Part shown: positions 1,942 through 50,334 of the stretch, piece by piece
Position numbering within the stretch: position 1 is the first letter of the stretch
Layout: every line of letters begins with the position of its first letter
Source of the DNA: an uncultured Eubacteriales bacterium
Lineage (GTDB): Bacteria > Bacillota > Clostridia > TANB77 > CAG-508
Assembly: GCA_949287075.1 (NCBI GenBank)
Contig: CASEEU010000052.1
Span: 7,606-71,605, forward strand
Reading direction: 5' to 3'
Length of the DNA: 64,000 nt
The notes under the pieces: generated by a model
Told to the model about the DNA's origin: nothing
Database searches by the model: none
What the model saw: the letters and a program-made list of their open reading frames with translations, nothing else
Translations under genes and position numbers: made by a program

Positions 1942-4900
1942 ATGAAAAAACGTAAAATCATATTTACAATCACGATGTTTATATTGGTTTTAATGACAGC
2001 TTTAACAAGCAATAAAGTACAAGCTGCGCCGTTAAATCCCAATTTGTATTTTGGAATAGCAGAACTAAGAACAACAACCAATATGGGATATGCTATGGGA
2101 GACCCAGATTCAGGTGCAGAAAAAATTTGGAAAATTGTACAATATAGCAATACAAATTTTGATGATCCCACAGAAGTCAATGCATATTGTATAAAAGCAG
2201 ATACAGGTTTTTCTGATGAAAGTTCTACAGACATTTATGATGTTAGCTATAATATGAAAACAGAGAGAAAAGAAATAGCTGAACAAAATGATATTTTAAA
2301 TGGACTTGTTAATGGTGGTCAATATGATAATTTACTAGCATTAGCAGATCTCCTTTATGTAAAAGGTGTATCAACACAAGCAGAAAGACAACAACTATTA
2401 GATGTATCTGGAGCAAATGATGTTGTAGAAAAAAGTGATTTTAGAGAAGAGACAGATTATTATATTACAGATGATGAAATAGATGCTGTACAACAAGCGG
2501 CTATATGGTATTTTACAAATTATGAAGAAAATGGAAGATATGATAAATATGGTGAAACGAGTTGGATTTGGTATACGTCAGAAATGAATAAAGGAGAATA
2601 TGAAAACTTTTCATCATATAATCCTACAGGAATACCATATGCAAGTGCAACAGCAGGATATTTTAGACAACAACAAATGGTAAAACTATACGATTATTTA
2701 ATTGAAACAGCTAGAGAAAATGCTATTGAAGGTATTAATGATGAAAAAACAATATTAACTGTATATGCATCAAATGAAGATTCAGAAGCACAACCAATTA
2801 TGGAAGTTATCAAACTACCAAGAACATTTGATTTATCATTAAGAAAATATATCACAGCAGTAAATGATAAAACAGTAGCAAATACTAGAGTACCAGTCAT
2901 AGATGAAAGTACATTAGGAAATGGAACAACAGCTACATATAAACACAGAAAAGATCCTATAGAAGTAAAAACCAATGATACGATTACATATAATATCACG
3001 ATATATAATGAAGGAGAAAAAGCAGGAAGAGCAACAAAAGTAGTAGATCAATTGCCAACAGGATTAGAATTTGTTGAAGTAGTCAGTGGAAATTTCCAAG
3101 AAGAAAATTATGATGTAGAAACCAACACAATATATTTAACAAGAAAGGCTAATAATACAACAAATTTACCAGCATATGAAGTAGGAACTTTAAGTTCAGA
3201 AACCATACAAATCAAATGTAAAGTAATAGCAACAGGAGGACAAACTGATAAAGTATTAACAAATATAGCATGGATATCAGAAGAAATAGATGAAGACGGA
3301 ACAGTTATTACAAACGAACCAGGAGATGATAGAGATTCAGAGCCATCAACGATTACAACACAAACAAAAGACGAATTAGTGACAACAGATAATGGATATA
3401 TGGGAAATAGCACTAATCAAGGAAAAGATTTAACAAATGCAGAAAGTTATTTTGAAGGACAACAAGATGATGATGATTTTGAGAAAATTGTTGTTAGAGC
3501 AGTAACTAGTGTAGAAGTTAGTAAAGTTTGGGAAGATAATGGTAATCAAGATGGACTTAGAACAGATAATGTTACAGTAGAATTATTGATAGATGGTCAA
3601 CCAAGTGGACAAACAATTACATTAAAAGCTGATGAGTGGACAGGTTCATTTGAAAATTTACCAACTAAAATAGATGGAAAAGATGTTACATATTCAGTGA
3701 AAGAAACAACCAGTATTAGTGGATATACAACAAATACCAATAGTACAGATAGTACAGGAAAAAGTTTTACCATTACAAATACACATAAAATATTTGACTT
3801 AAGCTTAAGAAAATATATAACAAAAGTAGAAAATACAGATATCAACAATAGAACTCCATCAATCAATACAGACTCTTTACAAACAGGAACAACTGCAACA
3901 TACAACCACAGAAAAGATCCAGTAGTGGTAGAACCAGGAGATATGGTAATATATAATCTAACCATTTATAATGAAGGGGAAAAAGCAGGAAGAGCAACAA
4001 AGATAGAAGATCAATTACCAACTGGATTAAAATATGTTGAAGTCGTATCTGGAAACTTTGAATTAGATAGTTATTCAGAAACAGATAATTTGTTAAAATT
4101 AGAAAGAACATCAAATACAGATAATTTATCAGCATATGATGGTGGTACAACATTAGATTCAGAAACCATCCAAATAAAATGTGAAGTAACAGCAAATGCA
4201 GGAAGTGAAGATAGTATATTAACAAATGTTGCATGGATATCAGAAGCATATGATGCAGAAGATAATAAAACGATAACAACAGAGAAAAAAGCAGATACAG
4301 ATTCTGAGCCAGGAACAACACCAACAGTAGATAAAGATAGTTTAGTAACAGAAGATGATGGATATGTAGGAAATAGCGATAATAGTGGAAAAGATTTAAC
4401 AAATAGTCAAGAATATTTTGAAGGTGAGCAAGATGATGATGACTTTGAAAAAATTGTAGTAGAAGCTAGAACACAAATAACAGTAACCAAACAATGGGTA
4501 GATAATGATAACCAAGATGGATTTAGACCAAATGAGCTAAAAATAGAATTATATAAAAAAGTAGGAGATGGTGCTGAAGAATTTGTAAGAGATGCAACAA
4601 TGACAGGAACAGGAAATACATGGGCAGGAAGATTTATAGATTTACCAGTATATGAAAATGGAGAAAAAATCACATATATTGTAAGAGAGGTTAATGAAAA
4701 TGGAAATATAGATGCCTACACATCAAGTGGAGATGCAACAGAAACAAATCAGTATACAATTACCAATACGCATACAACAGAATTAACAAGTGTAAGTGTT
4801 AACAAAGTATGGAATGATAATAACAACCAAGATGGAATTAGAGCAACTAGTATACAAGTACAATTGGTAAAAGAAGTAGGAGGAGAAAAAACAGAAGTAG

Positions 4901-7900
4901 AAGACAAAATCATCACTTTATCAAATGATAATCAATGGAAAGGAACATTTGATAATTTACCAGTTTATGAAAATGGACAAAAAATTACCTATTCAGTAAA
5001 AGAAATCACAGTAGATGGATATGATGTACAAATTACATCAAATGGAGAAAACAATTTCACCATTACGAATACACATGAAACAGAATTAACTAGTATAACA
5101 GCACATAAGGTATGGTCTGACTTTGATGATAGAGATGGTATCAGACCTGATAGCGTAGAATTTGAACTATATAAAAATGGAGAACCAACAGGGATAATAA
5201 AAGAATTAACAGCAGATGACTGGACAGCTACATTTGATAACTTACCAGTAAAAGAAAATGGTCAAGAGATTGTATATACTGTAAGAGAAGTAAATGTACC
5301 AGAGGGATATTATCCAAGTGGAGGAGGAAGACCGGTAAGAGAAGGCAATGGAGAATATAATGAAGAAATACAAAACCAAGCAGAAGAACCAATAGAAGGC
5401 ACACAAGAAAACGGCTACACCATTACAAATGTACATTCAATATTTGACTTAAGTTTAAGAAAATATATTACAAAAGTGGGAGACACAGACATTACAGATA
5501 GAATACCAAATATAGATATAAATCCATTGGTAGAAGGATTTATGCAAACTGGAGATGAAACAACAGCCCATTACAAACATAAAAAGAATCCAGTAACTGT
5601 TAAAACAGGAGATAAGGTTATATATAATTTAACTGTATATAATGAAGGAGTAAAAGCAGGAATGGCAACCAAAATTGAGGACCAATTACCAATTGGATTG
5701 AAATTTGAAAGAGTAATATCTGATGATTATGAAGTAGAAAGTTATTCAGAATCAGATAATCTTTTAAAATTAAAGTTAATTGATACAAACACAAATCTAG
5801 TAGACCCTGATTTTGCGGATTATCTATTAGAACCATTTAATGGACAAGCCTTAGATTCAGTTACTATACAAATAGAATGTACAGTAACAGCAGAAGCAGG
5901 AAGCGAAAATCAAATTTTAACAAATGTGGCTTGGATATCAGAAGCGTATGATGTTGCAGGTGGTGTAACGATAACAACACAAGAACATGCAGACACAGAT
6001 TCTGAACCAGGAACAAAACCAAATGTAAACAAAGATGATTTAGTCACAACAGATGATGGATACATTGGAAATGAAAATAATAATGGAAAAGACTTAAGTA
6101 ATAGCGAAGAATACTTTGAAGGAGAACAAGATGATGATGACTTCGAAAAAATAGTCATAGAAGCGCAAACACAAGTAACAGTCAATAAAGTATGGAACGA
6201 TAACAACAACCAAGATGGAATCAGACCAGACAGTATACAAGTACAATTGGTAAAAGAAGTAGATGGAGAAAAGACAGAAGTAGAGGACAAAGTTATTACT
6301 TTATCAGATGACAATCAATGGAAAGGAACATTTGACAATTTACCAGTTTATGAAAATGGACAAAAAATTACGTATTCAGTAAAAGAAATCACAATTAGTG
6401 GTTATGCGGTGAATATTACGCAAAACAGTGAAAATAACTTTACGATTACCAATACACATACACCAGGGGTAACCAGTGTTAATATTAACAAAGTGTGGGA
6501 TGACCAAAATAATCAAGATGGAATTAGACCAGAAAGCGTAGAAATTGAGTTATTAAAAAACGGAGAACCAACAGGAACTATTGTTACATTAAGTGAAGAA
6601 AACAATTGGACAGGAACATTTAATAACTTACCAATTAAAGAAAATGGTGAAGACATTGAGTATACAGTAAGAGAAAACACACAAATAGAAGGATATACAA
6701 CAGAAATTACAGAAAACACAGAAACAGCAAGTAATACAAATGATACACAAAGTTTAGCAAATGTAGAAGAACCAGAAATCACAACACAAACTTATGCTGC
6801 CAAAGATATGGTAAGAGCTGCAGTGGCGACTGTAGAGCCAAAAAGCTTTAGAATTACCAATACACATCTTGTAGAAGAAGCATTTGACTTATCATTAAGA
6901 AAATTTATCGTAGCAGTTAGCGAAGATGAAACAATAGAAGAAAATGATATCTTAATGAATGAAGATGGTTTAACTTATGAAAGAGAACCAGTAATAGATG
7001 CATCTAAATTAAATACATCTGATGAAGACGGAAATATGATTACAACAGCAATATATCATCATACCAAAGAACCGGTGTTGGTAAAGAAAAATGATATTGT
7101 TGTATATATGTTAAGAGTATATAATGAGGGAGAACAAGATGGATATGCAGCAGAAATTAAAGATCATTTACCATCATATTTAGAATTTGTAGACGGAGAA
7201 TACAATGCACAATATGGATGGGAATTATCAGAAGATGGAAGAACGGTGACAACAAGATATTTAGAAAATAGTGTCATTGCAAAACCACAAACTGATGAAA
7301 GTGGAAATAATACATTATCTTATGTACAAGTACCAATTATGTGTAGAGTGTCAGATAGTGTAAATGCAAATGAAAATATAACCAATATCGCAGATATTAC
7401 AGAATATCAAGATAAAGATAAACAACCAGTAGAAGATAGAGATTCACAAGAAGAAAATGTACAATTACCTACAGATGAAGAATTGCCAGGATATAAAGAT
7501 GAAGAAAGTGAAAATTCTTATGTACCAGGACAAGAAGATGATGACGATTTTGAAAAAGTGTATGTAGAGGAAGATAAAGAATTTGATTTAGCTCTAAGAA
7601 AATTCATAAGTGAAGTAGATGGAACGCAATATAATAGAGCACCAAATGTAGATTTATTAGGACTAGAAAGTGGAACAACTGCTATTTATAACCATACAAA
7701 GGATCCAGTATTGGTAAAAAGAAATAGTGTGATAATCTACACAATCAGAGTATATAATGAAGGAGATATTTCAGGATATGCTGAAGAAGTAACAGACTAT
7801 CTACCAGAAGGATTAGAATTTTTACCAGATCATGAAATTAACTTACAATATGAATGGCAAGTGTCAGAAGATGGAAGATATGTAACAACAGATTATTTAT

Positions 7901-9471
7901 CAAGTGCAAAAGAAACAGAAGGTAGACAAAATGAAATACAAGCATTTGATGGACAAACACTAGACTATAAGGAAGTACAAATTGCATGTCAAGTCAAAGA
8001 TAATGTAGGAACAAATGTAAAATTAACAAACTTAGCTGAAATCACAGAAGATAGTGATGAAGATAGGGATTCAACTCCAGATAATGTAGAAATACCAAGT
8101 GATGAAGAATTACCAAATTATAAAGATGATGAAATAGAAAAAGACTATGTACCAGGACAAGAAGATGATGACGATTTTGAAAAAGTGATTGTACAAGACT
8201 TTGACTTAGCATTAAGAAAATTCATCACAAAAGTAGATGAAGGAGATGTAACAACAAGAGTACCAGAAGTAAGTTATGATAGAGAAGAGGATAAAATTAC
8301 CTATAATCATACAAAGAACCCAGTAGAAGTAGTTACTGGAAATGTGGTAGAATATACTATCAGAGTATATAATGAAGGAGACATTGCAGGATATGCTGAA
8401 GAAGTAGCAGATGATATACCAGATGGATTAAGATATTTACCAGAAAATGAAACCAATATAGCATATAGATGGGTAATGTATGATGAAAACGGAAATGTAA
8501 CAGAAAATAGTGAAGAAGCAGTGGAAATTAGAACAGATTATTTATCAAAAGAACAAGGTGAAAATAGACAAAATGAAAGTACTCAAGAAGGAACAGCTTC
8601 TGAGGAAAATCCAAACTTATTACAAGCTTTTAACGGAGAAGAAGAAATCGGAGAAGGAAATCCTGATTACAGAGATTTAAAAATTGCATTTGAAGTAGTA
8701 GAACCAAATACATCAGATAGAATCATCGTCAATTCAGCACAAATCACAGAAGATAGTGATGAAAAAGGAAATCCAGTAGAAGATATTGATTCTATACCAG
8801 ATGAATGGAATGACGGAGAAGATGATCAAGATAGAGAATATATCAAATTGACCTACTTTGATTTAGCATTAAGAAAATGGGTTACTCAAGCCATTGTGAT
8901 AGAAAATGGACAAGAAACCATTACACAAACAGGACATACAGCAGAAATGAACCCAGAACCAGTTGTAAAAGTAGAGTTATATAGAAAAAAAGTAAATCAA
9001 GTAACCGTAAAATTCAGATATTCTATTAGAATCACAAACGAAGGTGATATTGCAGGATATGCGACAGAGATAACAGACTATATACCAGAAGGATTAAGAT
9101 TTGTAGCAGAAGATAATCCAGGATGGACAGATGAAGGAAATAATATTATTTCAACAAGAGCATTAGAAAACACATTATTACAACCAGGAGAATCAGCAGA
9201 AGTAGAAGTGGTATTAACATGGATAAATGGAGAAGACAATATGGGACAAATGACCAATATTGCAGAGATATCAGAAGACTATAACGATAAAGGGGCACCA
9301 GATAGAGATTCAACGCCAGATAATCAAAAACAAGGAGAAGATGATATAGATGATGCACCAGTATTGTTAACAGTAGGAACTGGACAAGAAAGAATCTATT
9401 ATGTATTAGGATTTACTGTATTAGGAACATTAGCCGGAGGATTAGTTTTAATGAAGAAGTTTGTAATATAG
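1942..9471 (+). CDS. Giant surface adhesin of 2509 aa. Order of parts: signal peptide, thioester-type (TQxA-like) domain, alternating DUF11-like and CnaB-like repeats, C-terminal anchor
   Basis: The SD is aaggag. The signal peptide is MKKRKIIFTITMFILVLMTALTSNKVQA/AP. Cys83 lies in NAYCIKAD and Gln185 in VQQAAIWYF. At least seven modules run F(D)L(S/A)LRK(Y/F/W)...YNEGE..G....DxLPxGL...DRDSxP...(Q/E)DDDDFEK. There are several CnaB-like modules (V.K.W.D..NQDG.RP......L.K.....TF.NLP..ENG..I.Y.V.E). The C-terminus is LLTVGTGQERIYYVLGFTVLGTLAGGLVLMKKFVI. Confidence 0.95.
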   Translation: MKKRKIIFTITMFILVLMTALTSNKVQAAPLNPNLYFGIAELRTTTNMGYAMGDPDSGAEKIWKIVQYSNTNFDDPTEVNAYCIKADTGFSDESSTDIYDVSYNMKTERKEIAEQNDILNGLVNGGQYDNLLALADLLYVKGVSTQAERQQLLDVSGANDVVEKSDFREETDYYITDDEIDAVQQAAIWYFTNYEENGRYDKYGETSWIWYTSEMNKGEYENFSSYNPTGIPYASATAGYFRQQQMVKLYDYLIETARENAIEGINDEKTILTVYASNEDSEAQPIMEVIKLPRTFDLSLRKYITAVNDKTVANTRVPVIDESTLGNGTTATYKHRKDPIEVKTNDTITYNITIYNEGEKAGRATKVVDQLPTGLEFVEVVSGNFQEENYDVETNTIYLTRKANNTTNLPAYEVGTLSSETIQIKCKVIATGGQTDKVLTNIAWISEEIDEDGTVITNEPGDDRDSEPSTITTQTKDELVTTDNGYMGNSTNQGKDLTNAESYFEGQQDDDDFEKIVVRAVTSVEVSKVWEDNGNQDGLRTDNVTVELLIDGQPSGQTITLKADEWTGSFENLPTKIDGKDVTYSVKETTSISGYTTNTNSTDSTGKSFTITNTHKIFDLSLRKYITKVENTDINNRTPSINTDSLQTGTTATYNHRKDPVVVEPGDMVIYNLTIYNEGEKAGRATKIEDQLPTGLKYVEVVSGNFELDSYSETDNLLKLERTSNTDNLSAYDGGTTLDSETIQIKCEVTANAGSEDSILTNVAWISEAYDAEDNKTITTEKKADTDSEPGTTPTVDKDSLVTEDDGYVGNSDNSGKDLTNSQEYFEGEQDDDDFEKIVVEARTQITVTKQWVDNDNQDGFRPNELKIELYKKVGDGAEEFVRDATMTGTGNTWAGRFIDLPVYENGEKITYIVREVNENGNIDAYTSSGDATETNQYTITNTHTTELTSVSVNKVWNDNNNQDGIRATSIQVQLVKEVGGEKTEVEDKIITLSNDNQWKGTFDNLPVYENGQKITYSVKEITVDGYDVQITSNGENNFTITNTHETELTSITAHKVWSDFDDRDGIRPDSVEFELYKNGEPTGIIKELTADDWTATFDNLPVKENGQEIVYTVREVNVPEGYYPSGGGRPVREGNGEYNEEIQNQAEEPIEGTQENGYTITNVHSIFDLSLRKYITKVGDTDITDRIPNIDINPLVEGFMQTGDETTAHYKHKKNPVTVKTGDKVIYNLTVYNEGVKAGMATKIEDQLPIGLKFERVISDDYEVESYSESDNLLKLKLIDTNTNLVDPDFADYLLEPFNGQALDSVTIQIECTVTAEAGSENQILTNVAWISEAYDVAGGVTITTQEHADTDSEPGTKPNVNKDDLVTTDDGYIGNENNNGKDLSNSEEYFEGEQDDDDFEKIVIEAQTQVTVNKVWNDNNNQDGIRPDSIQVQLVKEVDGEKTEVEDKVITLSDDNQWKGTFDNLPVYENGQKITYSVKEITISGYAVNITQNSENNFTITNTHTPGVTSVNINKVWDDQNNQDGIRPESVEIELLKNGEPTGTIVTLSEENNWTGTFNNLPIKENGEDIEYTVRENTQIEGYTTEITENTETASNTNDTQSLANVEEPEITTQTYAAKDMVRAAVATVEPKSFRITNTHLVEEAFDLSLRKFIVAVSEDETIEENDILMNEDGLTYEREPVIDASKLNTSDEDGNMITTAIYHHTKEPVLVKKNDIVVYMLRVYNEGEQDGYAAEIKDHLPSYLEFVDGEYNAQYGWELSEDGRTVTTRYLENSVIAKPQTDESGNNTLSYVQVPIMCRVSDSVNANENITNIADITEYQDKDKQPVEDRDSQEENVQLPTDEELPGYKDEESENSYVPGQEDDDDFEKVYVEEDKEFDLALRKFISEVDGTQYNRAPNVDLLGLESGTTAIYNHTKDPVLVKRNSVIIYTIRVYNEGDISGYAEEVTDYLPEGLEFLPDHEINLQYEWQVSEDGRYVTTDYLSSAKETEGRQNEIQAFDGQTLDYKEVQIACQVKDNVGTNVKLTNLAEITEDSDEDRDSTPDNVEIPSDEELPNYKDDEIEKDYVPGQEDDDDFEKVIVQDFDLALRKFITKVDEGDVTTRVPEVSYDREEDKITYNHTKNPVEVVTGNVVEYTIRVYNEGDIAGYAEEVADDIPDGLRYLPENETNIAYRWVMYDENGNVTENSEEAVEIRTDYLSKEQGENRQNESTQEGTASEENPNLLQAFNGEEEIGEGNPDYRDLKIAFEVVEPNTSDRIIVNSAQITEDSDEKGNPVEDIDSIPDEWNDGEDDQDREYIKLTYFDLALRKWVTQAIVIENGQETITQTGHTAEMNPEPVVKVELYRKKVNQVTVKFRYSIRITNEGDIAGYATEITDYIPEGLRFVAEDNPGWTDEGNNIISTRALENTLLQPGESAEVEVVLTWINGEDNMGQMTNIAEISEDYNDKGAPDRDSTPDNQKQGEDDIDDAPVLLTVGTGQERIYYVLGFTVLGTLAGGLVLMKKFVI
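4798..5076 (+). repeat. 279-nt CnaB-like unit, near-identical copy of 6181..6459
   Basis: VNKVWNDNNNQDGIRATSIQVQLVKEVGGEKTEVEDKIITLSNDNQWKGTFDNLPVYENGQKITYSVKEITVDGYDVQITSNGENNFTITNTH differs from the second copy at only a handful of residues. Confidence 0.8.
6181..6459 (+). repeat. 279-nt CnaB-like unit, near-identical copy of 4798..5076
   Basis: The sequence is VNKVWNDNNNQDGIRPDSIQVQLVKEVDGEKTEVEDKVITLSDDNQWKGTFDNLPVYENGQKITYSVKEITISGYAVNITQNSENNFTITNTH. Confidence 0.8.
8194..9471 (+). repeat. About 1.28 kb segment near-identical to 239..1477
   Basis: See the entry for 239..1477. Confidence 0.8.
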
Positions 9472-20135: not shown

Positions 20136-20741
20136 ATATATCAATTTACATATAAAAATTATATTCAATGCATTCATAATATAAAACAATATGATTATCT
20201 GAATTTACAAGAAGAAAATGAAAAATATAACATTTCAAGAAAAAATAATTTAGACATAAGATATAGAGAAATCATTGAATATCTATTTAAAGACAAAGAA
20301 AGAATTTGTTTTTTTCTTAATTGTTTTTCAGAGATTCATAAAAAAATAGAAGAAGAAAAATTGACATATATAGATTTTTATAAAGGAAAAAAAGGCATAA
20401 AAATTATATATAAACATGCTGATAAACAAATATTTTATGTGATTATGTATCAACAAGAAATTTCTATAGATTTACCCTATTTTATTTTGCAAGAATGTAT
20501 AAAAATTATTCAGAATTGTAAGCAAAAAAACATCAAGAATACGATTATTATCCCTATTGTAATTTATGTCAAAGAAAATATATATCATTATGGAAAAATA
20601 CTGAAGCAATGTTTTCAGATAACAACTTATGATAATCATATACTAGAATTAAAATACAATGTAATGAATTTATCTAAATTTTCAAAATTACCAAAGATGA
20701 AAAATACTATATTAGAAGACTTAATATATTTAGAAAATTAG
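20136..20741 (+). pseudogene. Degenerate Rpn/YhgA-like (PD-(D/E)XK putative transposase family) ORF with no canonical start codon
   Basis: The frame is open from about 20106. A strong SD, taaggagg, lies at 20117..20124, but the first ATG/GTG/TTG in frame is TTG 20361. The product reads ...YLFKDKERICFFLNCFSEI...KIIYKHADKQIFYVIMYQQE...IIIPIVIYVKE.., which resembles the family pattern (..FL..xL.. / LLEhQS / PIIPIVLYnG) as I recall it. Confidence 0.35.
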
Positions 20742-20800: not shown

Positions 20801-20898
20801 ACTGTAATAATACACCATATCTGATTATTTTACATAAAATATATTAATGGCAGAATAAATGACAGATGTATCAAAAGATTAGAAAGGAATGAAACTAG

Positions 20899-21666: not shown

Positions 21667-22465
21667 TGCTTTATCACAGGAAAGAAAACAATATATCAAA
21701 CATAATCGAAAAAGAAAAATACTGGTATTTATAACACAGGTAGCAATATTAGTTGGCTTTTTAGCTATATGGGAAATATTAGCCAATATGAATATCATTG
21801 ATAGTTTTATCATGAGTCAACCAAGTAGAATATGGGAAACATTAACTAACCTGGGTTCAAATGATTTGTTAATGCATATTAAAGTAACTGTATATGAAAC
21901 AGTTGTTGGATTCTTACTAGGAACTATTTTAGGAACAATCATTGCTATTTTGTTATGGTGGTCTAAATTTCTTTCAGATGTGCTAGAACCTTATTTAGTC
22001 GTATTAAATAGTTTACCAAAAGTTGCTTTAGGACCTGTCATTATCATATGGGTAGGAGCAGGAACACCAGCGATTATTGTGATGGCAGTTGCTATTTCAT
22101 TAGTTGTTACCATATTAGAAAATTTAAATGGATTTATAAAAACAGATAAAGATTTAATTAAAATGGCAAAAACATTTAAAGCTACGAAATTTCAAATATT
22201 AACGAAAATTGTTATACCAGCCAATATTTCTACTTTTATTAATTCTTTAAAAGTTAGTATAGGACTTTCTTTAGTAGGTGTTATCTCTGGAGAATTCTTA
22301 GTATCTAAAGCAGGTTTGGGGTATTTGATTGTATATGGAGGCCAAGTATTTAAATTAGATTTGGTTATGGCAAGTGTCATTATACTTGGTATTGTGGCAG
22401 GACTTATGTATTTAGCTGTATTATTGTTAGAAAAAATCATATTGAAATCTAAAAAATTTCAATAA
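21659..22465 (+). CDS. ABC transporter permease (SsuC/TauC-like)
   Basis: ATG 21659 overlaps the upstream stop, as in a coupled operon. There are six hydrophobic segments and a typical binding-protein-dependent permease loop (AKTFKATKFQILTKIVIPAN). Confidence 0.85.
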   Translation: MNNALSQERKQYIKHNRKRKILVFITQVAILVGFLAIWEILANMNIIDSFIMSQPSRIWETLTNLGSNDLLMHIKVTVYETVVGFLLGTILGTIIAILLWWSKFLSDVLEPYLVVLNSLPKVALGPVIIIWVGAGTPAIIVMAVAISLVVTILENLNGFIKTDKDLIKMAKTFKATKFQILTKIVIPANISTFINSLKVSIGLSLVGVISGEFLVSKAGLGYLIVYGGQVFKLDLVMASVIILGIVAGLMYLAVLLLEKIILKSKKFQ

Positions 22466-22477
22466 TAAAATATGAAG

Positions 22478-22617
22478 AAAGACATAATTCTATGAAACAA
22501 AGTTACAGTTTAGCTCTTATACATTTTTATTATTTTTTACACCTTGTGTGTCGCAAAATAATAAAAATGTATAAGAGCTAAACTGTAACAAAAAAAAATT
22601 AGAAATATGTCTTTTTT
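22478..22617 (+). terminator. Very long hairpin with a 35-bp perfect core stem, ending in a T run
   Basis: gttacagtttagctcttatacatttttattatttt (22502..22536) pairs perfectly with 22555..22589 around an 18-nt loop. An outer stem, aaagacata / tatgtcttt, is followed by ttttt. Confidence 0.7.
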
Positions 22618-22747
22618 ATTTATATATAATTTTTATATTATGAAAATTGTGTTAAGATATATGGAAGAATGAGAAGATGATAAATAGTTTTTTTAGATTA
22701 AAGCAATTATATTTTTGAATTTACATAAAATAAAACCTCTAAAAGAC

Positions 22748-22775
22748 TTGTTTTTTTCGTAAATTATGGTAAAAT
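22748..22775 (+). promoter_or_regulatory. Sigma-A-like promoter with an extended -10, serving the three-gene cassette
   Basis: TTGTTT lies at 22748..22753, followed by a 16-nt spacer and tgg-TAAAAT ending at 22775. The SD aaaggag precedes ATG 22801. Confidence 0.5.
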
Positions 22776-22800
22776 ATGTATAGAGTGAAAAGGAGAAATT

Positions 22801-23910
22801 ATGTTGTTACCAGTAAAATCATTAAAAGAAGTACAAAATGAAATAAACGAGCAGTTAGGTGTGATGAAAAAATTAAATCCTCAAAATGGATATTATTTTC
22901 ACACACATGGATCAAGAGAATATAGTATACATGACACGAAAGTGGAGACAACAATGTGTCATAAAGATGATAATGAATTAATATTAGCACATTTTAAGTC
23001 TAAAAAGGGGTATAATTCTAAATTAAAAAACAGTAAGCAATTTGCTAATCACTATGCAGAGTATATCGCATATTTAATTTTAAAGCAATTAGGAAAAAAA
23101 GTTTGCAAAACGGATTTAGGAGAAATTGCCATAAGAAATAAGTATAGTAATAAAGTGATAAATATAGAAGGCGTTTTAAGTCAGTATCAAGTTACAGTGG
23201 AAGAGAATTTTAAACCATTAATGGTCATTGCGGAAAGTTATAAAAAAGAACATCCTAAAAAATATAAAGAAATGACAACACAAGGTAAAACAAATTCAGA
23301 AGATAATTATGTGAATATCGAAATTATATTAAAAACCTTAGAAGAATATTATACAAAAAATGGACAAAGTGATAAAATTCCACAAATGAGAAAAGATTTT
23401 TTTGATATGTGTATGTTTGATTTGATGTTTGCTAATAGAGATAGAAGTGATGACAATTTTGGTGTAAAAGTGAATCAACGAACAAACGAAATCAATTTTT
23501 ATGCATTATTTGATAATGAACAAATTTTAGGAATGCAAGAAGAGAAAGATGATATTGTAAGATATTTATCAAGTGACAAAGGATATCAAAAATTCAAAAA
23601 GCAAAATTTAACATCATGTATTGGTATACCAGGAAATCCAAAAAGAACAGAACCAACTGCACTGTTAATATATTTATTAGAACATTATCATGAAGAAACA
23701 ATCGATTCATTAAATGATATCGGTAGATATACATTTTCACATTTAGAAGAAGTTTTAGAAGTGTGTTCAAAACTATCTACAGAACATAAAATATTTGCCA
23801 AAAAAATATTCTTAGAGAGACAAGAAGAAATAACAGATGCACTAAAAGCGTTTCAACAAAGAAAAGAAGAAGAAAATTTAAAAGAAGATGATGATTCACT
23901 AGAATTATAA
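22801..23910 (+). CDS. HipA_C-like kinase-fold protein, paralog 1, with a variant catalytic loop
   Basis: It carries DLMFANRDRSDDNFGV...INFYALFDNEQILG, with 24 residues between the two Asp. It is collinear with the third gene: FKSKKG versus LFKPKRP, and ANHYAEYIAYLILKQLG versus ANHYGEFIGSVLAREAD. Confidence 0.6.
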   Translation: MLLPVKSLKEVQNEINEQLGVMKKLNPQNGYYFHTHGSREYSIHDTKVETTMCHKDDNELILAHFKSKKGYNSKLKNSKQFANHYAEYIAYLILKQLGKKVCKTDLGEIAIRNKYSNKVINIEGVLSQYQVTVEENFKPLMVIAESYKKEHPKKYKEMTTQGKTNSEDNYVNIEIILKTLEEYYTKNGQSDKIPQMRKDFFDMCMFDLMFANRDRSDDNFGVKVNQRTNEINFYALFDNEQILGMQEEKDDIVRYLSSDKGYQKFKKQNLTSCIGIPGNPKRTEPTALLIYLLEHYHEETIDSLNDIGRYTFSHLEEVLEVCSKLSTEHKIFAKKIFLERQEEITDALKAFQQRKEEENLKEDDDSLEL

Positions 23911-23927
23911 TAAGATGAGGTGAATAG

Positions 23928-24299
23928 ATGGAGTATTTATATTTAAAATGGGTAGATTATAAAACAAATAAAAAATATTTAATAGGTGCCTTATTTAGGG
24001 ACAAAGAAAAGGGAAAGTATTATTTTAAAATGAGTAGAAAACATGTGGAAAAAGCAATTCAAGAAAAAGTAATATCAGAAGCTTTATTACCCTTTTATGA
24101 TTTAGATAAGATTTATGAAAGTGATGAAATTTTTGCCATTTTTAAAGTGAGATTACCTAAAATTGAAACATATTCTCAAGAGGAAATGAAAGAATTATTG
24201 GAAGATTTAGAAATGGATGAATATGATGAGTTTGAGTATTTAAGGAAAACAAAGGGGATGTTGGTAACAGATAAATATATATTAGAAGAGGAGAAATAA
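23928..24299 (+). CDS. Small 123-aa protein resembling HipA N-terminal subdomain 1 (HipS-like)
   Basis: The SD gaggtg is present. The sequence reads LIGALFRDKEKGKYYFKMS...LLPFYDLDKIYESDEIFAIFKVRLPK...EYLRKTKGMLVTDKYIL. This fits the pattern vGxL...g.y.F.Y...LP...fF.nlLP...lL...G.d..G that I recall for the HipA N-domain. The stop lies 1 nt before the next ATG. Confidence 0.4.
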   Translation: MEYLYLKWVDYKTNKKYLIGALFRDKEKGKYYFKMSRKHVEKAIQEKVISEALLPFYDLDKIYESDEIFAIFKVRLPKIETYSQEEMKELLEDLEMDEYDEFEYLRKTKGMLVTDKYILEEEK

Positions 24300-24300
24300 T

Positions 24301-25350
24301 ATGTTCGAATTTAGAAATATTGATGGATTTATACCATATAAGTTCGAAACAGTGGGAGAGCTAAAAGGAAAAAGATGGTATATAGATTCTAAAAAACGTA
24401 AAACGGGATTATTTAAACCCAAAAGACCTGAATTCAAAGATCAAAAGGTGTTTTGTGCAAACCATTATGGAGAGTTTATAGGAAGTGTTTTAGCAAGGGA
24501 GGCAGACATACCAGCTTGCGAAGCAGAATTAGCACATCTTAGTAAATATTATGAACATATACATAAAGAAAGAAATCATGGAACACCAGAGGAAAAAGAT
24601 GGTTGTATCATTTATAGTCAATTAGAAAGAGAAGATATACTAGAAGCAGGAAAATTTACAATTGAGAGATTTAAAGAAAGATATAGAGAACGCTATGAAA
24701 GAATCATAAAAGATGATAAATATAAAGGAGATGTCAATGATAATGTAGAATTAGTTTTTGCCGCTATCATTTCTAGAGTAGTAGATTTTTACAGAAGGAA
24801 AGGGATTTATTCAGAAGAATTTATACAAGCCAAAATACAACAAACCAGAAAAAGAATTATAGAGATGATTGTGTACGATTGTTTATATGGAAACTATGAT
24901 AGACATGATGAGAATTGGTCTATGCAAATCAAAGGAAATGAGAATATTGATTTATATCCATTATATGACAATGAAAGAGTATTAGGTCTTTATGAAAATC
25001 AAAATTTTATTGAAGATACATTAAGGAATCAAGAAGTGGAGAAGAAAATAGATGAAAACTTCTTCTCTAGGATGCATGTACCAGGAGAAACTAAGAAAAA
25101 TTCAACATATAAAGAAATGTTAGAATATCTGATGAATACATACCCGCAAGAGACAAGAGAAATGTTACAAAAGCAATTAAGTAGACATACAGCTGAAAGT
25201 ATAAGAAAACTTTTAGAAGAATGTGAGGGCTTACCTAGTGTATATGTGGATTTTGGAACAAAAATGTATACATATAGAAATGCTTTTGCAAAAGAATTAT
25301 TAGAACGTAATAAAAATCTTGAATTATTAGAGAAAGGTCAAGAAAGATAA
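24301..25350 (+). CDS. HipA_C-like Ser/Thr kinase, paralog 2, with a canonical catalytic loop and no N-subdomain 1
   Basis: It carries YGNYDRHDENWSMQIKGNENIDLYPLYDNERVLG. The two Asp are 23 residues apart, matching the catalytic and Mg-binding Asp spacing in E. coli HipA as I recall it. GLFKPKRP resembles the HipA Lys-containing strand. Confidence 0.7.
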   Translation: MFEFRNIDGFIPYKFETVGELKGKRWYIDSKKRKTGLFKPKRPEFKDQKVFCANHYGEFIGSVLAREADIPACEAELAHLSKYYEHIHKERNHGTPEEKDGCIIYSQLEREDILEAGKFTIERFKERYRERYERIIKDDKYKGDVNDNVELVFAAIISRVVDFYRRKGIYSEEFIQAKIQQTRKRIIEMIVYDCLYGNYDRHDENWSMQIKGNENIDLYPLYDNERVLGLYENQNFIEDTLRNQEVEKKIDENFFSRMHVPGETKKNSTYKEMLEYLMNTYPQETREMLQKQLSRHTAESIRKLLEECEGLPSVYVDFGTKMYTYRNAFAKELLERNKNLELLEKGQER

Positions 25351-25358
25351 AAAATATA

Positions 25359-25392
25359 AGAATTGCTATATAACATAGTAATTCTTTTTTTA
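25359..25392 (+). terminator. Rho-independent terminator closing the cassette
   Basis: The hairpin is aagaattgctat-ataac-atagtaattctt followed by T7. Confidence 0.7.
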
Positions 25393-26566: not shown

Positions 26567-26899
26567 ATGAATATGGATCTTTCTAATATTGGTAAAAGAA
26601 TACAAGCAACAAGAATGGAAAATAAAATTAGCCAAAAAGAAATGGCACATTTCTTAGGAATATCTATGAATTATATAAGCAGATTAGAAAATGGAAAAAC
26701 AAAAATAGATTTGAAAACATTTATGAAAATATGTGATTTTTTAAATATTTCTATTTATGATGTTCTAAACGAAAAAAGTGATCATATAATAGGATATATG
26801 GATAAAGAGTTATATGAGTTAATTATAAAGTGTAATCTGGAGAAACAGAAGTTTATATATAATATGGTAAAGTTATTAATAAAAAATCAAGTGGTATGA
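26567..26899 (+). CDS. XRE-family helix-turn-helix transcriptional regulator
   Basis: The HTH region is IGKRIQATRMENKISQKEMAHFLGISMNYISRLENGKT. Confidence 0.85.
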   Translation: MNMDLSNIGKRIQATRMENKISQKEMAHFLGISMNYISRLENGKTKIDLKTFMKICDFLNISIYDVLNEKSDHIIGYMDKELYELIIKCNLEKQKFIYNMVKLLIKNQVV

Positions 26900-48031: not shown

Positions 48032-49873
48032 TTATTCTACTGTAACAGATTTTGCTAAGTTTCTTGGTTTATCAACATCTAATCCTTTTTCCTTTGAAAT
48101 ATAGTATGATAATAATTGCAAAGGAATAATTGATAAGATTGGTGAGATATATGTGTTAGTTTCAGGAATTTCTAACACTGTATCAAACATAGAATTATCA
48201 ATCTTTTGATTGGTGATAATCAATGTTTTCGCTCCACGAGTAATCACTTCTTGAAGATTGCTAACCGTTTTTTCAACCAAAGTAGGTTCTGTCATAATTC
48301 CTACAACGGTTACATCTTTTTCGATTAAAGCGATTGGTCCATGTTTTAATTCACCAGCTGCATAACTTTCTGAATGAATATATGAAATTTCCTTTAATTT
48401 TAAAGACCCCTCTTTAGCAACAGTTTCATCTATTCCTCTACCAATAAAGAATATATCTTTTTCTTGATAAATTCTTTTTGAGAATTGTTTAACGACATCT
48501 TCTAATTTTAAGCATTCTTCTATTTTTCTTGGTAAGTCTAAAATTTCTTTTTTTAATTCATATAATATTTGAGAATTTTTTTCTAATATTTCTGCAAAAT
48601 AAATAGCTAATATAACAATTAAAACAACTTGTGAAGTATATGCTTTTGTAGAAGCAACTGCAATTTCTGGTCCTGCATGTGTATATATAGAATAATCTGC
48701 TTCTCTTGTAATGGAACTTCCAATAACATTAGAAATAGCAAGTGTTTTTGCACCTTTTTCTTTTGACAATTTTAATGCAGCAATTGTGTCAGCTGTTTCT
48801 CCTGATTGAGAAATAAAGATGCATAAGGTTTTGTCATCAATTAATGGATCTCTATATCTAAATTCAGAAGCAATATCTACTTCAGTAGGAATTCTACAAA
48901 GCTTTTCGATAATATTTTTTCCTGCTAATCCAGCATGCATAGCTGTACCGCAAGCAACAATATAAATTTTATTTAAACTTGATAAATACTCTTTTGTGAA
49001 TTTCAATTCATCAAATTCACATTTTGAGTTTTGACTAAACTTAGCACCAATTGTTTCACGAATGGCGGTTGGCTGTTCATGAATTTCTTTTAACATGAAA
49101 TCTTCATAACCATTTTTTTCACTGCTAGCAGCATTCCATTCAATACTTTGAGTTTTTTTATCTATTTTATTTAAATCTTTATCATAAAATTCAGCAGAAT
49201 CTCTTGATAAAAATACATATTCAAAATCATTTAAAAGATAGAAGTTTCTAGTAAATGATAAAATTGCTGGTATGTCTGAAGAAATATAGTTTTCATCAAC
49301 ACCTTTTCCAATAACTAAAGGACTATCTTTTCTAACAACAATCATATTATCAGGAAAGTCTTTACAAATAATTTCTAAAGCGAAACTTCCTTTTAAATCA
49401 GAACAAGCATTTCTAACAGCAGTTAAAAATTTCATTTTTCCTGTTTCTTCGGTTTCTTTTGTATAATAGTAATGAATTAAATTTGGAACAATTTCTGTAT
49501 CTGTATCAGAATAGAATTTATATCCATTATCCATTAAAAATTTTCTTAATTCATTATAATTTTCAACTATACCATTATGAACAACACTAAATGACTTTGT
49601 ATTATCTTGATGAGGGTGAGCATTTTCTTTAGAAGGTTTTCCGTGTGTTGCCCATCTAGTATGTGCAATACCAATAGTACCTTTTAAATCATCAATACCT
49701 TTTATATTGTATAAATTTTTTACTCTTCCTTTATTTTTCATAACAACTAAACCTTCTGGTTCAATTGTTGAAATACCTGCAGAGTCATAACCTCTGTATT
49801 CCAATCTTAAAAGTCCATTGATTAAAATTGGACTTGCTTTTTGTTTTCCTATATAACCTACAATTCCACACAT
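48032..49873 (-). CDS. glmS: Glutamine--fructose-6-phosphate aminotransferase
   Basis: The start is chosen at MCGIVGYIG, where the N-terminal Cys is the nucleophile, preceded by the SD ggagg. Two SIS domains are present. The C-terminus is ...KPRNLAKSVTVE. Confidence 0.95.
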   Translation of the reverse strand: MCGIVGYIGKQKASPILINGLLRLEYRGYDSAGISTIEPEGLVVMKNKGRVKNLYNIKGIDDLKGTIGIAHTRWATHGKPSKENAHPHQDNTKSFSVVHNGIVENYNELRKFLMDNGYKFYSDTDTEIVPNLIHYYYTKETEETGKMKFLTAVRNACSDLKGSFALEIICKDFPDNMIVVRKDSPLVIGKGVDENYISSDIPAILSFTRNFYLLNDFEYVFLSRDSAEFYDKDLNKIDKKTQSIEWNAASSEKNGYEDFMLKEIHEQPTAIRETIGAKFSQNSKCEFDELKFTKEYLSSLNKIYIVACGTAMHAGLAGKNIIEKLCRIPTEVDIASEFRYRDPLIDDKTLCIFISQSGETADTIAALKLSKEKGAKTLAISNVIGSSITREADYSIYTHAGPEIAVASTKAYTSQVVLIVILAIYFAEILEKNSQILYELKKEILDLPRKIEECLKLEDVVKQFSKRIYQEKDIFFIGRGIDETVAKEGSLKLKEISYIHSESYAAGELKHGPIALIEKDVTVVGIMTEPTLVEKTVSNLQEVITRGAKTLIITNQKIDNSMFDTVLEIPETNTYISPILSIIPLQLLSYYISKEKGLDVDKPRNLAKSVTVE

Positions 49874-49954
49874 AATATAAATCCTCCATTCATGCAATCT
49901 ATAAATTGCTAATATAATTTTTGTTTATAAATATATCTCTAACTTAATAAATGA

Positions 49955-50133: not shown

Positions 50134-50334
50134 TATATAAATGTAATACTGTCCTCCTTTCTCAAAAATTTCTTGCATACTTTTAATTTACTGCTATTAT
50201 ATTACACTAAATAAAAAAAATACGCAAGTCCTAGTTAAAAAATTTTATTTTCTTAAAATTCAAATAAAAATTATCGACTATAAAATTGTTCAAATTTTAA
50301 AAAATAGTGAAATTAGGAAAAATTTATAAAAAGA

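What the first reader, a model, noticed from the sequence alone, without database searches (positions are those of the whole stretch)
22748..25392. Kinase / HipS-like / kinase cassette: a HipA-family module with two kinases and no HTH antitoxin
Three tightly packed co-directional genes have their own extended -10 promoter and terminator.

Products 1 (369 aa) and 3 (349 aa) are collinear paralogs. Both carry a HipA_C-type catalytic core.
- Product 3 has GNYDRHDENWS...LYPLYDNE, with 23 residues between the two Asp. That is the spacing I recall for the E. coli HipA catalytic Asp309 and Mg-binding Asp332.
- Product 1 has ANRDRSDDNFG...YALFDNE, with 24 residues between them and Ser in place of the His. 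It could therefore be a variant kinase or a pseudokinase.
- Both are too short to contain HipA N-subdomain 1.

The middle 123-aa protein has the pattern of that missing subdomain: IGALFRDKEKGKYYFKMS...LLPF...FAIFKVRLPK...KTKGMLVTD. Its stop lies 1 nt before the start of gene 3. This parallels HipS-HipT in the tripartite HipBST system.

The known HipBST order is hipB-hipS-hipT with a single kinase and an HTH HipB. A kinase / HipS-like / kinase arrangement without HipB is not one I know.

The placement, inserted inside an ABC transporter locus, is typical of toxin-antitoxin or defence cargo.
Basis: partly seen in the sequence, partly recalled or inferred. Interest (0 to 1): 0.8.

Follow-up and report, generated by a model that had tools for sequence, protein, structure and literature searches.

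The report
Two-kinase HipA-family cassette with HipS
A 2.7-kb three-gene unit in the chromosome of an uncultured gut Clostridia bacterium encodes two related HipA-type protein kinases flanking one very conserved HipS-like partner protein, a layout not yet described for a known family of growth-arrest (toxin-antitoxin / candidate phage-defence) modules.

Summary
Three co-directional genes (369, 123 and 349 aa) sit at 22801-25350. Products 1 and 3 are paralogs (26% identity, E 9e-24) with a short HipA/CtkA-type kinase core. The middle protein is a stand-alone HipA N-subdomain-1 (HipS-like) domain, shown by transitive profile evidence rather than a direct Pfam hit. No HTH gene belongs to the unit.

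These are hipJS (kinase then HipS) and hipIN (kinase then HipS-HIRAN), which is PADLOC candidate PDC-M03. Both are kinase-first and lack HipB. This cassette is a hipJS-type pair plus a lineage-specific second kinase placed after hipS.

The triplet is conserved in 34 of 37 species-level genomes of one uncultured Clostridia clade. It occurs in at least two chromosomal settings, between uvrB and uvrA or between an ABC permease and its binding protein. Close relatives have that ABC slot empty or filled with a different toxin-antitoxin cargo.

All three genes are under purifying selection, and the HipS-like gene is far more constrained (omega 0.01-0.09) than the kinases (about 0.25).

Most likely mechanism, inferred and not tested: two toxin-type kinases are held in check by one shared HipS-like antitoxin.

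Verdict: a new variant of a known kind, of moderate interest.

The parts
22720..22729 (+). Conserved TTTACATAAA box about 20 nt upstream of the -35 element; a candidate operator or promoter-associated site
   Evidence: Invariant in 9 window-clade species. TTTAYRTAAA is found within 130 nt upstream of the first kinase in 14 of 36 loci, against a background of 0.013 per 130 nt. A second copy lies at 20829, upstream of the ABC ATPase gene, so it may not be specific to the cassette.
22748..22775 (+). Promoter of the cassette: -35 TTGTTT (22748-22753), 16-nt spacer including the extended -10 TG (22767-22768), -10 TAAAAT (22770-22775)
   Evidence: Read from the sequence. Invariant across 9 species in a variable spacer. 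The same CTTGA...TGGTAAAAT architecture occurs upstream of the first kinase in many uvrB-context loci. It was not called by the generic scan.
22801..23910 (+). Gene 1, the upstream kinase 'U' (369 aa): a CtkA-like short HipA-fold core kinase with Ser216 in place of the D-x-H histidine and a non-canonical Gly-rich loop region
   Evidence: PADLOC PDC-M03A at E 3e-23. The family profile hits CtkA 3akj at E 8e-9. The AF2 model has pLDDT 92.4 and pTM 0.91. Foldseek gives CtkA at E 8e-11, HipT 7ab3 at 7e-5, then HipA. K66, E87, D214, R215, D238 and E240 are invariant in 51 orthologs and N219 in 50 of 51. dN/dS is 0.22-0.35. There is no Pfam HipA_C hit for this copy.
23928..24299 (+). Gene 2, 'S' (123 aa): a stand-alone HipS-like protein homologous to HipA N-subdomain 1 (Couple_hipA)
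   Evidence: It matches the N-terminal ~115 aa of PADLOC PDC-M03B at E 6e-20. Its profile hits HipS-HIRAN (HipN-type) and kinase-HipS-HIRAN (HipL-type) proteins that pass the Pfam Couple_hipA threshold. 28 of 54 stand-alone relatives hit Couple_hipA. hhalign against HipA residues 1-108 gives 92.4% probability. The profile also hits E. coli HipA residues 10-92 at E 0.023 and H. influenzae HipS 7czo at E 0.15. The AF2 model has pLDDT 84.6. The only full-length Foldseek superposition is Shewanella HipA, TM 0.57, with a non-significant E. dN/dS is 0.01-0.09.
24301..25350 (+). Gene 3, the downstream kinase 'D' (349 aa): a canonical short HipA-family core kinase whose start lies 1 nt after the gene 2 stop
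   Evidence: Pfam HipA_C scores 31.9 bits against a cut-off of 30.5, E 1.3e-7. PADLOC PDC-M03A at E 4e-26. CtkA is the best PDB sequence match. In 35 orthologs LFKP and the Asp, His and Asn of D-R-H-x-x-N are invariant; G-x-LKGKRW (LKxKLW in six), GN[YN]D and YDNE[RK] are conserved. The S-to-D gap is 0-5 nt in nearly all species. dN/dS is 0.21-0.33.
25358..25391 (+). Hairpin plus T-run that ends the transcription unit. It is the ABC operon's pre-existing post-permease hairpin and marks the right-hand insertion boundary.
   Evidence: Folds at -11.2 kcal/mol with z -5.3. It is homologous to GAATTACTAT-gtaa-ATAGTAGTTC-TTTTTT, which directly follows the permease stop at the empty site in L062.
22466..22466 (.). 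Left-hand insertion boundary, immediately after the permease stop codon (the permease gene ends at 22465)
   Evidence: Comparison of filled and empty sites. L062 and L063 have permease, a 113-nt spacer and then SBP, with no cassette.

Best explanation
This is a self-contained, horizontally relocatable HipA-family kinase module. It has its own promoter and three translationally close-packed genes.

It derives from the known kinase-then-HipS bicistron (hipJS; hipIN/PDC-M03 when HIRAN is attached). A lineage-specific duplication of the kinase added a second copy downstream of hipS.

Both kinases are short 'core' HipA/CtkA-type Ser/Thr kinases that lack HipA N-subdomain 1. The 123-aa protein is that subdomain, encoded separately.

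Proposed mechanism, by analogy with HipS-HipT and inferred only: the HipS-like protein docks on the kinase N-lobe next to the Gly-rich loop and keeps the kinase inactive. When the restraint is lost, through S depletion or a phage or stress trigger, one or both kinases would phosphorylate an essential translation factor and arrest growth. The targets of characterized HipA and HipT are aminoacyl-tRNA synthetases.

One S protein serves both kinases. That would explain why S is far more constrained than either kinase.

The downstream kinase is the canonical enzyme. The upstream one keeps the ATP-Lys/Glu pair, the catalytic Asp, the Asn and the Mg-Asp. It has a relaxed D-x-H histidine and an atypical Gly-rich loop, so it probably has altered regulation or reduced activity.

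The operon contains no DNA-binding autoregulator.
For: Shown:
- Kinase family and fold of both large proteins.
- Paralogy of the two kinases.
- HipS-like identity of gene 2 through PDC-M03B, Couple_hipA-positive relatives, hhalign and a HipA N-terminal structural superposition.
- PDC-M03 is HipA + HipS-HIRAN, i.e. hipIN (PMC13245101; PMC8262856).
- The nearest outgroups are kinase-then-HipS and kinase-then-HipS+~110-aa-extension (PDC-M03B-type) bicistrons.
- U and D together are monophyletic against the outgroup kinases in 87 of 100 bootstraps.
- The triplet is present in 34 of 37 species, 2 species have U-S only, and 1 has a decayed remnant.
- Tight S-to-D coupling.
- Purifying selection on all three genes, strongest on S.
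- Catalytic residues are invariant in both kinase families.
- Cargo behaviour: the same slot is empty in L062/L063 and holds a GNAT + MNT/HepT TA cargo in L061. The cassette also occurs in at least two other chromosomal contexts with its promoter.

From the literature: HipS neutralises HipT by direct binding at the Gly-rich loop, and HipT His212 is an active-site residue (PMC10627512). hipJS and hipIN HipS-like proteins are proposed antitoxins (PMC8262856).
Against: - No experiment exists for any member of Gerdes clade XI (hipJS, hipIN and others), so toxicity and antitoxin function are extrapolated from the distant HipBST system.
- Gene 2 itself has no direct Pfam Couple_hipA hit. The Foldseek E-values for its model are not significant.
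- In typical type II TA pairs the antitoxin evolves faster than the toxin, whereas here it is the slowest gene in the locus.
- The position that is Glu63 in HipS (Asp67 in HipA), which points into the kinase active site, aligns with a conserved Lys (K78) here. The mode of interaction may therefore differ.
- The module is long-resident and syntenic (uvrB...uvrA) across a whole clade, which is unlike patchy defence cargo.
- No complex prediction could be run, so whether S binds one kinase or both is unknown.
Confidence: 0.6

Rival explanations
1. Kinase-pseudokinase pair. The downstream kinase is the only effector. The upstream paralog has become a catalytically impaired sensor, decoy or scaffold that controls release of S or activation of D, for example on binding a phage protein. 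This would resemble tandem kinase-pseudokinase immune receptors.
For: The upstream family has lost the D-x-H histidine repeatedly: S, N, A or D in 13 of 51 orthologs, including two separate subclades. In its main clade it lacks the conserved G-x-LKGK Gly-rich loop that the downstream kinase keeps. In the window copy both features are degenerate. It is nonetheless under purifying selection (omega about 0.25), as expected for a functional non-catalytic protein. HipT His212 is an active-site residue (PMC10627512).
Against: K66, E87, D214, R215 and D238 are invariant and N219 is kept in 50 of 51 orthologs. 38 of 51 keep the His. U-S bicistrons without D exist (L032, L034). U also occupies the position of the presumed toxin in all outgroup hipJS/hipIN modules. 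These points argue that U is, at least ancestrally, an active toxin-type kinase.
Confidence: 0.15
2. Not a toxin-antitoxin system. S is an obligatory subunit that completes the kinases by supplying HipA N-subdomain 1 in trans. The three proteins would form a non-toxic regulatory kinase complex with a conserved physiological role in this clade, possibly linked to DNA damage because the cassette lies inside uvrB...uvrA.
For: S is as constrained as the ABC ATPase (omega 0.01-0.09). The module is syntenic between uvrB and uvrA in about 22 species. In four of them it starts 3-5 nt after the uvrB stop, so it is probably co-transcribed. In full-length HipA the N-subdomain is part of the active enzyme. 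Relatives of S are fused to, or neighbour, DNA-centred domains: HIRAN and a DEDD exonuclease (PMC11706625). Legionella HipBST is likewise conserved across a genus (PMC10653801 abstract).
Against: The cassette behaves as accessory cargo in the window clade: the same slot is empty or holds another TA system in close relatives. It has been lost or decayed in L042. It has moved between at least three contexts with its own promoter. The kinases evolve about five times faster than neighbouring housekeeping genes. No consistent LexA-type box was found.
Confidence: 0.2
3. A redundant tandem duplicate. One kinase is a decaying copy with no role, and the functional unit is an ordinary hipJS or hipST pair.
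For: The two kinases are paralogs. U-S-only versions exist.
Against: Both copies are intact in 34 of 37 species spanning saturated synonymous divergence. Both have dN/dS of 0.2-0.35 and invariant catalytic residues. The duplication predates the diversification of the whole clade.
Confidence: 0.05

Closest known systems
hipJS (Gerdes, Baerentsen & Brodersen 2021, mBio, PMC8262856; main clade XI, uncharacterized)
   Same: A short core HipA-family kinase is followed by a stand-alone HipS-like gene, with no HipB/HTH. Genes 1 and 2 reproduce this layout. L032 and L034 carry exactly this bicistron from the same family, and L054 and L056 are outgroup examples.
   Different: A third gene, a paralogous kinase, follows hipS with a 0-5 nt gap. 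The kinases are larger here (349-369 aa, against 279-321 aa quoted for HipG/I/J/M). By HMM hits the HipS-like protein groups with HipN/HipL-type domains.
hipIN, equal to PADLOC candidate PDC-M03 (HipA-like kinase + HipS-HIRAN protein)
   Same: Both kinases match PDC-M03A (E 3e-23 and 4e-26). Gene 2 matches the N-terminal half of PDC-M03B (E 6e-20). The gene order is kinase first, and there is no HTH.
   Different: There is no HIRAN domain, and there is a second kinase. PDC-M03 is only a candidate defence system with no validation found in the held literature.
hipBST (E. coli O127, Legionella, Haemophilus)
   Same: HipA is split into a HipS-like protein and a core kinase encoded immediately downstream and probably translationally coupled (genes 2 and 3). 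Foldseek places the gene 1 model on HipT 7ab3 at E 7e-5.
   Different: There is no HipB. An additional kinase lies upstream. The kinases are closer to CtkA than to HipT. The HipS Glu63-equivalent position is Lys, and HipS Trp65 is not evidently conserved.
CtkA (JHP0940) of Helicobacter pylori, PDB 3akj/3akk/3akl
   Same: It is the best solved structural and sequence relative of both kinases: a short HipA-fold Ser/Thr kinase with GNxDRHxxNW and a matching C-terminal helical region.
   Different: CtkA is described as a stand-alone, cell-translocating proinflammatory kinase (PDB title). No HipS-like partner or paralog pair is known to me for it.

Membership tests
HipA-family kinase (Pfam HipA_C, PF07804) | Profile match at or above the Pfam gathering score | tested here: met
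   Gene 3 scores 31.9 bits against a cut-off of 30.5, E 1.3e-7. Gene 1 has no hit itself. It is tied to the family by paralogy, PDC-M03A, subthreshold or precomputed HipA_C hits in orthologs and its fold.
HipA-family kinase | Catalytic loop D-x-H-x-x-N and a Mg-binding Asp about 23 residues downstream | tested here: met
   In gene 3 the Asp, His and Asn of DRHDEN and the Asp of YDNE are invariant in 35 orthologs. Gene 1 keeps D214, N219 and D238 but has S216 in place of the His. Across its orthologs the position reads H38/N6/S5/A1/D1, so gene 1 meets the feature only partly.
HipA-family kinase | Gly-rich (P-loop-like) loop and ATP-binding Lys in the N-lobe | tested here: inconclusive
   Gene 3 has conserved G-x-LKGKRW and LFKPK. 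Gene 1 has an invariant FK(66) but no conserved Gly-rich motif in its main clade. Loop function depends on the main chain and cannot be judged from sequence.
HipA-family kinase | HipA/CtkA fold | tested here: met
   The gene 1 AF2 model (pLDDT 92.4) matches CtkA at E 8e-11 (TM 0.74-0.77 normalised to the target), HipT at 7e-5 and HipA at about 4e-3.
HipA-family kinase | Ser/Thr kinase activity; growth arrest through phosphorylation of an aminoacyl-tRNA synthetase | not testable with these tools
   This needs expression, phosphoproteomics and in-vitro assays.
HipS / HipA N-subdomain 1 (Pfam Couple_hipA, PF13657) | Profile match to Couple_hipA | tested here: inconclusive
   Gene 2 alone has no hit at E <= 1. 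However, 28 of 54 stand-alone relatives recovered by its profile hit PF13657 (best 1.8e-8). HipN/HipL-type relatives pass the gathering score. hhalign of the family against HipA 1-108 gives 92.4% probability and E 5e-7 over 90 columns.
HipS / HipA N-subdomain 1 | Fold of HipA N-subdomain 1 | tested here: inconclusive
   The AF2 model has pLDDT 84.6, but only the top model is confident. The only full-length Foldseek superposition is Shewanella HipA 4pu4 (TM 0.57, 123 columns, probability 0.69) at a non-significant E of 0.8.
HipS | Binds and neutralises the cognate core kinase | not testable with these tools
   No multimer prediction was available. Only genetic coupling was shown, with a 1-nt gap to gene 3.
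hipBST tripartite system | An HTH HipB gene heading the operon | tested here: not met
   No HTH gene lies in or next to the cassette in the uvrB context. The XRE gene at 26567-26899 is part of the flank and is also present at the empty site in L062.
hipJS | A bicistron of core kinase followed by stand-alone HipS-like protein | tested here: not met
   Genes 1 and 2 fit, but a third conserved kinase gene follows in 34 of 37 species. Only L032 and L034 have the pure bicistron.
hipIN / PDC-M03 | Second protein is HipS-like domain + HIRAN domain | tested here: not met
   Gene 2 covers only positions ~8-114 of the 232-aa PDC-M03B profile and ends there. There is no HIRAN hit. True members such as P0151 and L055 match end to end.

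The most novel reading that the evidence does not exclude
The two paralogs form a bacterial kinase/pseudokinase immune pair that shares one HipS-like adaptor. The upstream copy has repeatedly lost the catalytic-loop His and the Gly-rich loop. In this reading it is a non-catalytic sensor or decoy whose engagement, for example by a phage factor or a DNA-damage signal, releases the canonical downstream kinase from HipS and arrests translation. That would be a three-part logic not known for any Hip system, and it would be convergent with eukaryotic tandem-kinase immune receptors.
Probability: 0.12. Interest if true: 0.75.

Novelty: new variant of a known kind. Interest (0 to 1): 0.5.

Why it matters
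Gerdes et al. catalogued ten HipA-family gene organizations. None has two kinases, and their whole clade XI (hipJS, hipIN and others) has no characterized member.

This cassette would be an eleventh organization. It raises a concrete, testable question: can one HipS-like protein control two diverged kinases?

It also offers a natural series for dissecting what HipS-like proteins and the D-x-H histidine do. The series runs from U-S-D through U-S only to a decayed remnant, and it includes His-retaining and His-lacking upstream kinases.

The unusually strong constraint on the small protein is the reverse of the usual toxin/antitoxin rate pattern. This hints that the small protein does more than plug an active site.

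The practical impact is modest. The hosts are uncultured gut Clostridia, and the system belongs to a known family.

Tried and rejected
- Direct sequence searches of gene 2 and of its narrow family profile against PDB found nothing relevant. Only the broadened profile reached HipA and HipS, and only marginally.
- Foldseek with the gene 2 model gave no significant E-value.
- Scanning viral contigs for the cassette found none, so there is no evidence of phage carriage, although PHROG families exist for distant relatives.
- The broad alignment A3 was too diverse for the metagenome scan. A narrower alignment (A4) was used instead.
- The first tree script timed out. The second tree was saturated at depth: U monophyly had only 21 of 100 bootstraps and D appeared paraphyletic. 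Only the U+D-versus-outgroup split (87 of 100) is used.
- LexA-type boxes (GAAC-N4-GTTY) were sought near uvrB and the cassette and in the window. None was consistent, so SOS control is not claimed.
- The Rfam matches of the upstream palindrome to microRNA precursor families are long-hairpin artefacts below the gathering scores.
- No direct repeats bracket the Hip cassette in the window or in L009. The 21-nt, 81% match in L009 is probably chance.
- The generic promoter and terminator scan found no more sites than shuffled sequence. Conservation was used instead.
- The downstream XRE HTH gene was considered as a missing HipB and rejected, because it belongs to the flanking locus.


Full report
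OBSERVATION. The window holds three co-directional ORFs at 22801-23910 (369 aa, 'U'), 23928-24299 (123 aa, 'S') and 24301-25350 (349 aa, 'D'). U and D are collinear paralogs, with 26% identity over 294 residues and E 9e-24. The quoted motifs and Asp-to-Asp offsets (23 in D, 24 in U) are correct. The S stop codon lies 1 nt before the D start, and both S and D have good ribosome-binding sites. The region's GC content (23-31%) does not stand out from its surroundings.

THE KINASES. D passes the Pfam HipA_C gathering threshold (31.9 bits against 30.5). U does not hit HipA_C itself. Both proteins match PADLOC PDC-M03A (E 3e-23 and 4e-26), and both have CtkA of H. pylori as their best solved relative. 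A profile of 51 U orthologs plus the window D sequence raises the CtkA match to E 8e-9.

An AlphaFold2 model of U is confident (pLDDT 92.4, pTM 0.91). It superposes on CtkA (E 8e-11, target-normalised TM 0.74-0.77), then on HipT of the E. coli HipBST complex (7e-5), and then on HipA.

CATALYTIC RESIDUES. In 35 D orthologs, LFKP and the Asp, His and Asn of the D-R-H-x-x-N loop are invariant, and G-x-LKGKRW (LKxKLW in six), GN[YN]D and YDNE[RK] are conserved. In 51 U orthologs, K66, E87, N212, D214, R215, D238, E240 and Q241 are invariant, and N219 is kept in 50. The His of D-x-H is the exception: it reads H in 38, N in 6, S in 5, A in 1 and D in 1. The losses fall in the window subclade and, separately, in the most divergent subclade. 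The main U clade also lacks the conserved Gly-rich motif.

In HipT the equivalent His212 lies in the active site and contacts the phosphorylated Gly-rich-loop serine (PMC10627512). U is therefore a conserved protein that very probably still binds nucleotide. Its regulation or catalysis differs from D. The window copy is among the most degenerate.

THE MIDDLE PROTEIN. S alone has no Pfam hit and no PDB sequence hit. It does match the N-terminal ~115 residues of the 232-262-residue PDC-M03B profiles (E 6e-20).

A profile search of 1.84 billion representatives found 167 relatives in two size classes. The ~220-250-aa class carries Couple_hipA (above the gathering score) plus HIRAN, which is the HipN architecture. 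Two larger hits are HipA_C + Couple_hipA + HIRAN, the HipL architecture. Of 54 stand-alone relatives, 28 hit Couple_hipA.

The broadened profile aligns to residues 10-92 of E. coli HipA (E 0.023) and to H. influenzae HipS (E 0.15).

The AF2 model of S has pLDDT 84.6. Its only full-length structural superposition is on Shewanella HipA (TM 0.57), although the Foldseek E-value is not significant.

Taken together, S is a HipS-like stand-alone N-subdomain-1. The homology is well supported transitively and weakly supported directly.

WHAT WAS ALREADY KNOWN. Gerdes et al. (PMC8262856) defined ten Hip organizations. These include hipJS (core kinase, then HipS), hipIN (core kinase, then HipS-HIRAN) and hipBST. 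None has two kinases, and clade XI has no characterized member.

PDC-M03 is hipIN. A protein positive for HIRAN and Couple_hipA matches PDC-M03B end to end (E 8e-81), and its partner-type kinases match PDC-M03A (PMC13245101). The 'no HipB, kinase first' aspects are therefore known. The second kinase is the new element.

DISTRIBUTION AND EVOLUTION. Thirty-seven species-level genomes carry an S relative. All are uncultured gut Clostridia from chicken, rabbit, ruminant, mouse and human samples, and one is a 1.8-Mb closed MAG. Among them:
- 34 have kinase-S-kinase, some cut by contig ends.
- 2 (L032, L034) have U-S only, in another context and with no D remnant.
- 1 (L042) has only a frameshifted S remnant.

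Metagenome contigs extend the triplet down to 55% S identity. Below about 38% identity the neighbours are kinase-then-HipS or kinase-then-HipS+~110-aa-extension (PDC-M03B-type) bicistrons. U and D together separate from those outgroup kinases in 87 of 100 NJ bootstraps. Deeper resolution is unreliable. The duplication is therefore specific to this lineage and predates its diversification.

SELECTION. Against ten related species, dN/dS is 0.22-0.35 for U, 0.21-0.33 for D and 0.01-0.09 for S. For comparison it is 0.02-0.07 for the ABC ATPase and about 0.17 for ComEC. Across the deeper uvrB-context species, S keeps 73-80% identity while the kinases keep about 50%. None of the three is a pseudogene. 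S is the most constrained gene in the neighbourhood.

GENOMIC SETTING. There are two main contexts.

In about 22 species the cassette lies between uvrB and uvrA. In four of them U starts 3-5 nt after the uvrB stop.

In 11 species, including the window, it lies in the block YhgA-like / ABC ATPase / permease / [cassette] / SBP / XRE-HTH / NlpC-P60 / ComEC. Two of those species lack the ABC genes altogether.

Close relatives show that the permease|SBP junction is a cargo slot:
- L062 and L063 have a contiguous operon with a 113-nt spacer.
- L061 has a GNAT gene plus an MNT/HepT toxin-antitoxin pair in the same place, bracketed by an exact 15-nt repeat of the hairpin's 3' half.
- L060 has yet another arrangement.

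At the empty site the permease stop is followed directly by a hairpin plus T-run and then the SBP promoter. The hairpin after D in the window is that same element. The cassette is therefore inserted between the permease stop and the operon's own hairpin.

The XRE gene is part of the flank and is not a HipB. The cassette's promoter (CTTG[A/T]TTTTT...TGGTAAAAT) is invariant in nine species. It recurs in many uvrB-context loci, so it travels with the unit. No recombinase or terminal repeats were found, and there were no viral copies.

MECHANISM (inferred). The best-supported model is two toxin-type core kinases restrained by one shared HipS-like protein. By analogy with HipS-HipT, S would dock beside the Gly-rich loop. 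Release of that restraint would lead to phosphorylation of an essential translation factor and growth arrest.

The following observations support this model:
- The family relationships described above.
- The existence of U-S-only versions, and of kinase-first outgroups in which the upstream kinase is the presumed toxin.
- The near-universal 0-5-nt coupling between S and D.
- The accessory, slot-hopping behaviour shared with a bona fide TA cargo.
- The extreme constraint on S, which a dual-partner requirement would explain.

The following argue for caution:
- Nothing in clade XI has been tested.
- The rate pattern is the reverse of typical antitoxins.
- The HipS Glu63 / HipA Asp67 position is a conserved Lys in S.
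- The module is stably syntenic across a clade.

The rivals are a kinase/pseudokinase sensor-effector pair (0.15), a non-toxic heteromeric signalling kinase possibly tied to DNA repair (0.2), and a redundant duplicate (0.05, contradicted by conservation).

VERDICT. Its novelty claim needs trimming, because hipJS and hipIN/PDC-M03 are the closest known systems and already lack HipB. What remains new is the conserved kinase-HipS-kinase architecture with a hyper-conserved HipS-like protein and an upstream kinase with a relaxed catalytic-loop histidine. This is a new variant of a known kind, with interest about 0.5.

Noticed in passing
window 22461-22631 (core 22502-22589): A ~170-bp palindromic element lies just after the permease stop. 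It has perfect 35-nt inverted arms with an 18-nt loop, nested in a second imperfect inverted repeat. One arm sequence also has an exact match in L036, which like the window has an enlarged spacer; the other window-clade relatives lack it. It may be a small inserted hairpin element. Its Rfam microRNA matches are artefacts.
   Followed up: partly
L061:4380-6000, L062:5880-6000, L060; window 22466 / 25358-25391: The permease|SBP junction of this ABC operon is a variable cargo slot. It is empty in L062 and L063. In L061 it holds GNAT + MNT/HepT, bracketed by an exact 15-nt direct repeat (TAGTAGTTCTTTTTT) of the terminator hairpin's 3' half. In the window it holds the Hip triplet. The hairpin may be the recombination target.
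   Followed up: partly
window 22720-22729 and 20829-20838: The box TTTACATAAA (a TTTAYRTAAA near-palindrome) is conserved upstream of the cassette promoter. It is about 30-fold enriched upstream of the first kinase across loci. It also occurs about 60 nt upstream of the ABC ATPase gene. It may be the site of an unidentified regulator or a general promoter element.
   Followed up: partly
window 20361-20741: A truncated YhgA/Rpn-like (Transposase_31) ORF of 126 aa, against 208-224 aa in most relatives, sits in an 18-22% GC stretch. It always flanks the window-type cassette locus, and in L008 and L012 it is directly adjacent to the cassette. It may be linked to the relocation of the cassette.
   Followed up: no
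L038, L040, L041, L043 (about 6900-6940); about 22 loci overall: In most species the cassette lies inside the uvrB...uvrA pair. In four species the upstream kinase starts 3-5 nt after the uvrB stop, so co-transcription with a DNA-repair gene is likely. No consistent LexA box was found.
   Followed up: partly
P0152 (306 aa, from the representative search): This protein is a fusion of an RNase_T/DEDD exonuclease domain with a Couple_hipA (HipS-like) domain. It fits the reported adjacency of DEDD deoxydinucleases to HipA-HIRAN operons (PMC11706625) and suggests a functional link between HipS-like domains and nucleases.
   Followed up: no
L001:5786-6826 (also L002-L004, L026): An extra 346-aa gene lies between a shortened uvrB (510 aa) and the upstream kinase. 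It has weak similarity to the C-terminal part of PDC-M03A (E 6e-5) and to AbiEi (E 1.5e-3). It may be a third, degenerate kinase-like paralog.
   Followed up: no
L005:9635-10027, L019, L033: A 128-152-aa ORF with no Pfam or PADLOC hit follows the downstream kinase in some uvrB-context species. It might be an accessory component.
   Followed up: no
window gene 2 residue K78 (codon at 24159-24161): In the hhalign alignment the conserved RLPK Lys of S aligns with HipA Asp67, the 'LLPD/E' position. That position equals HipS Glu63, which points into the HipT active site. The nearest hipJS/hipIN-type relatives have Asp there (RLPD). This is a charge reversal specific to the two-kinase clade.
   Followed up: no
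window 49988-50143 (-): A glmS ribozyme (88 bits, E 6e-19) lies upstream of the 621-aa ORF at 48032-49897. This is ordinary.
   Followed up: no
window 1942-9471 (+): A very large ORF of 2509 aa. It was not examined.
   Followed up: no
L062:12145-12789: A HicA/HicB toxin-antitoxin pair lies downstream of ComEC in the relative with the empty ABC slot. This chromosomal neighbourhood accumulates TA cargo.
   Followed up: no
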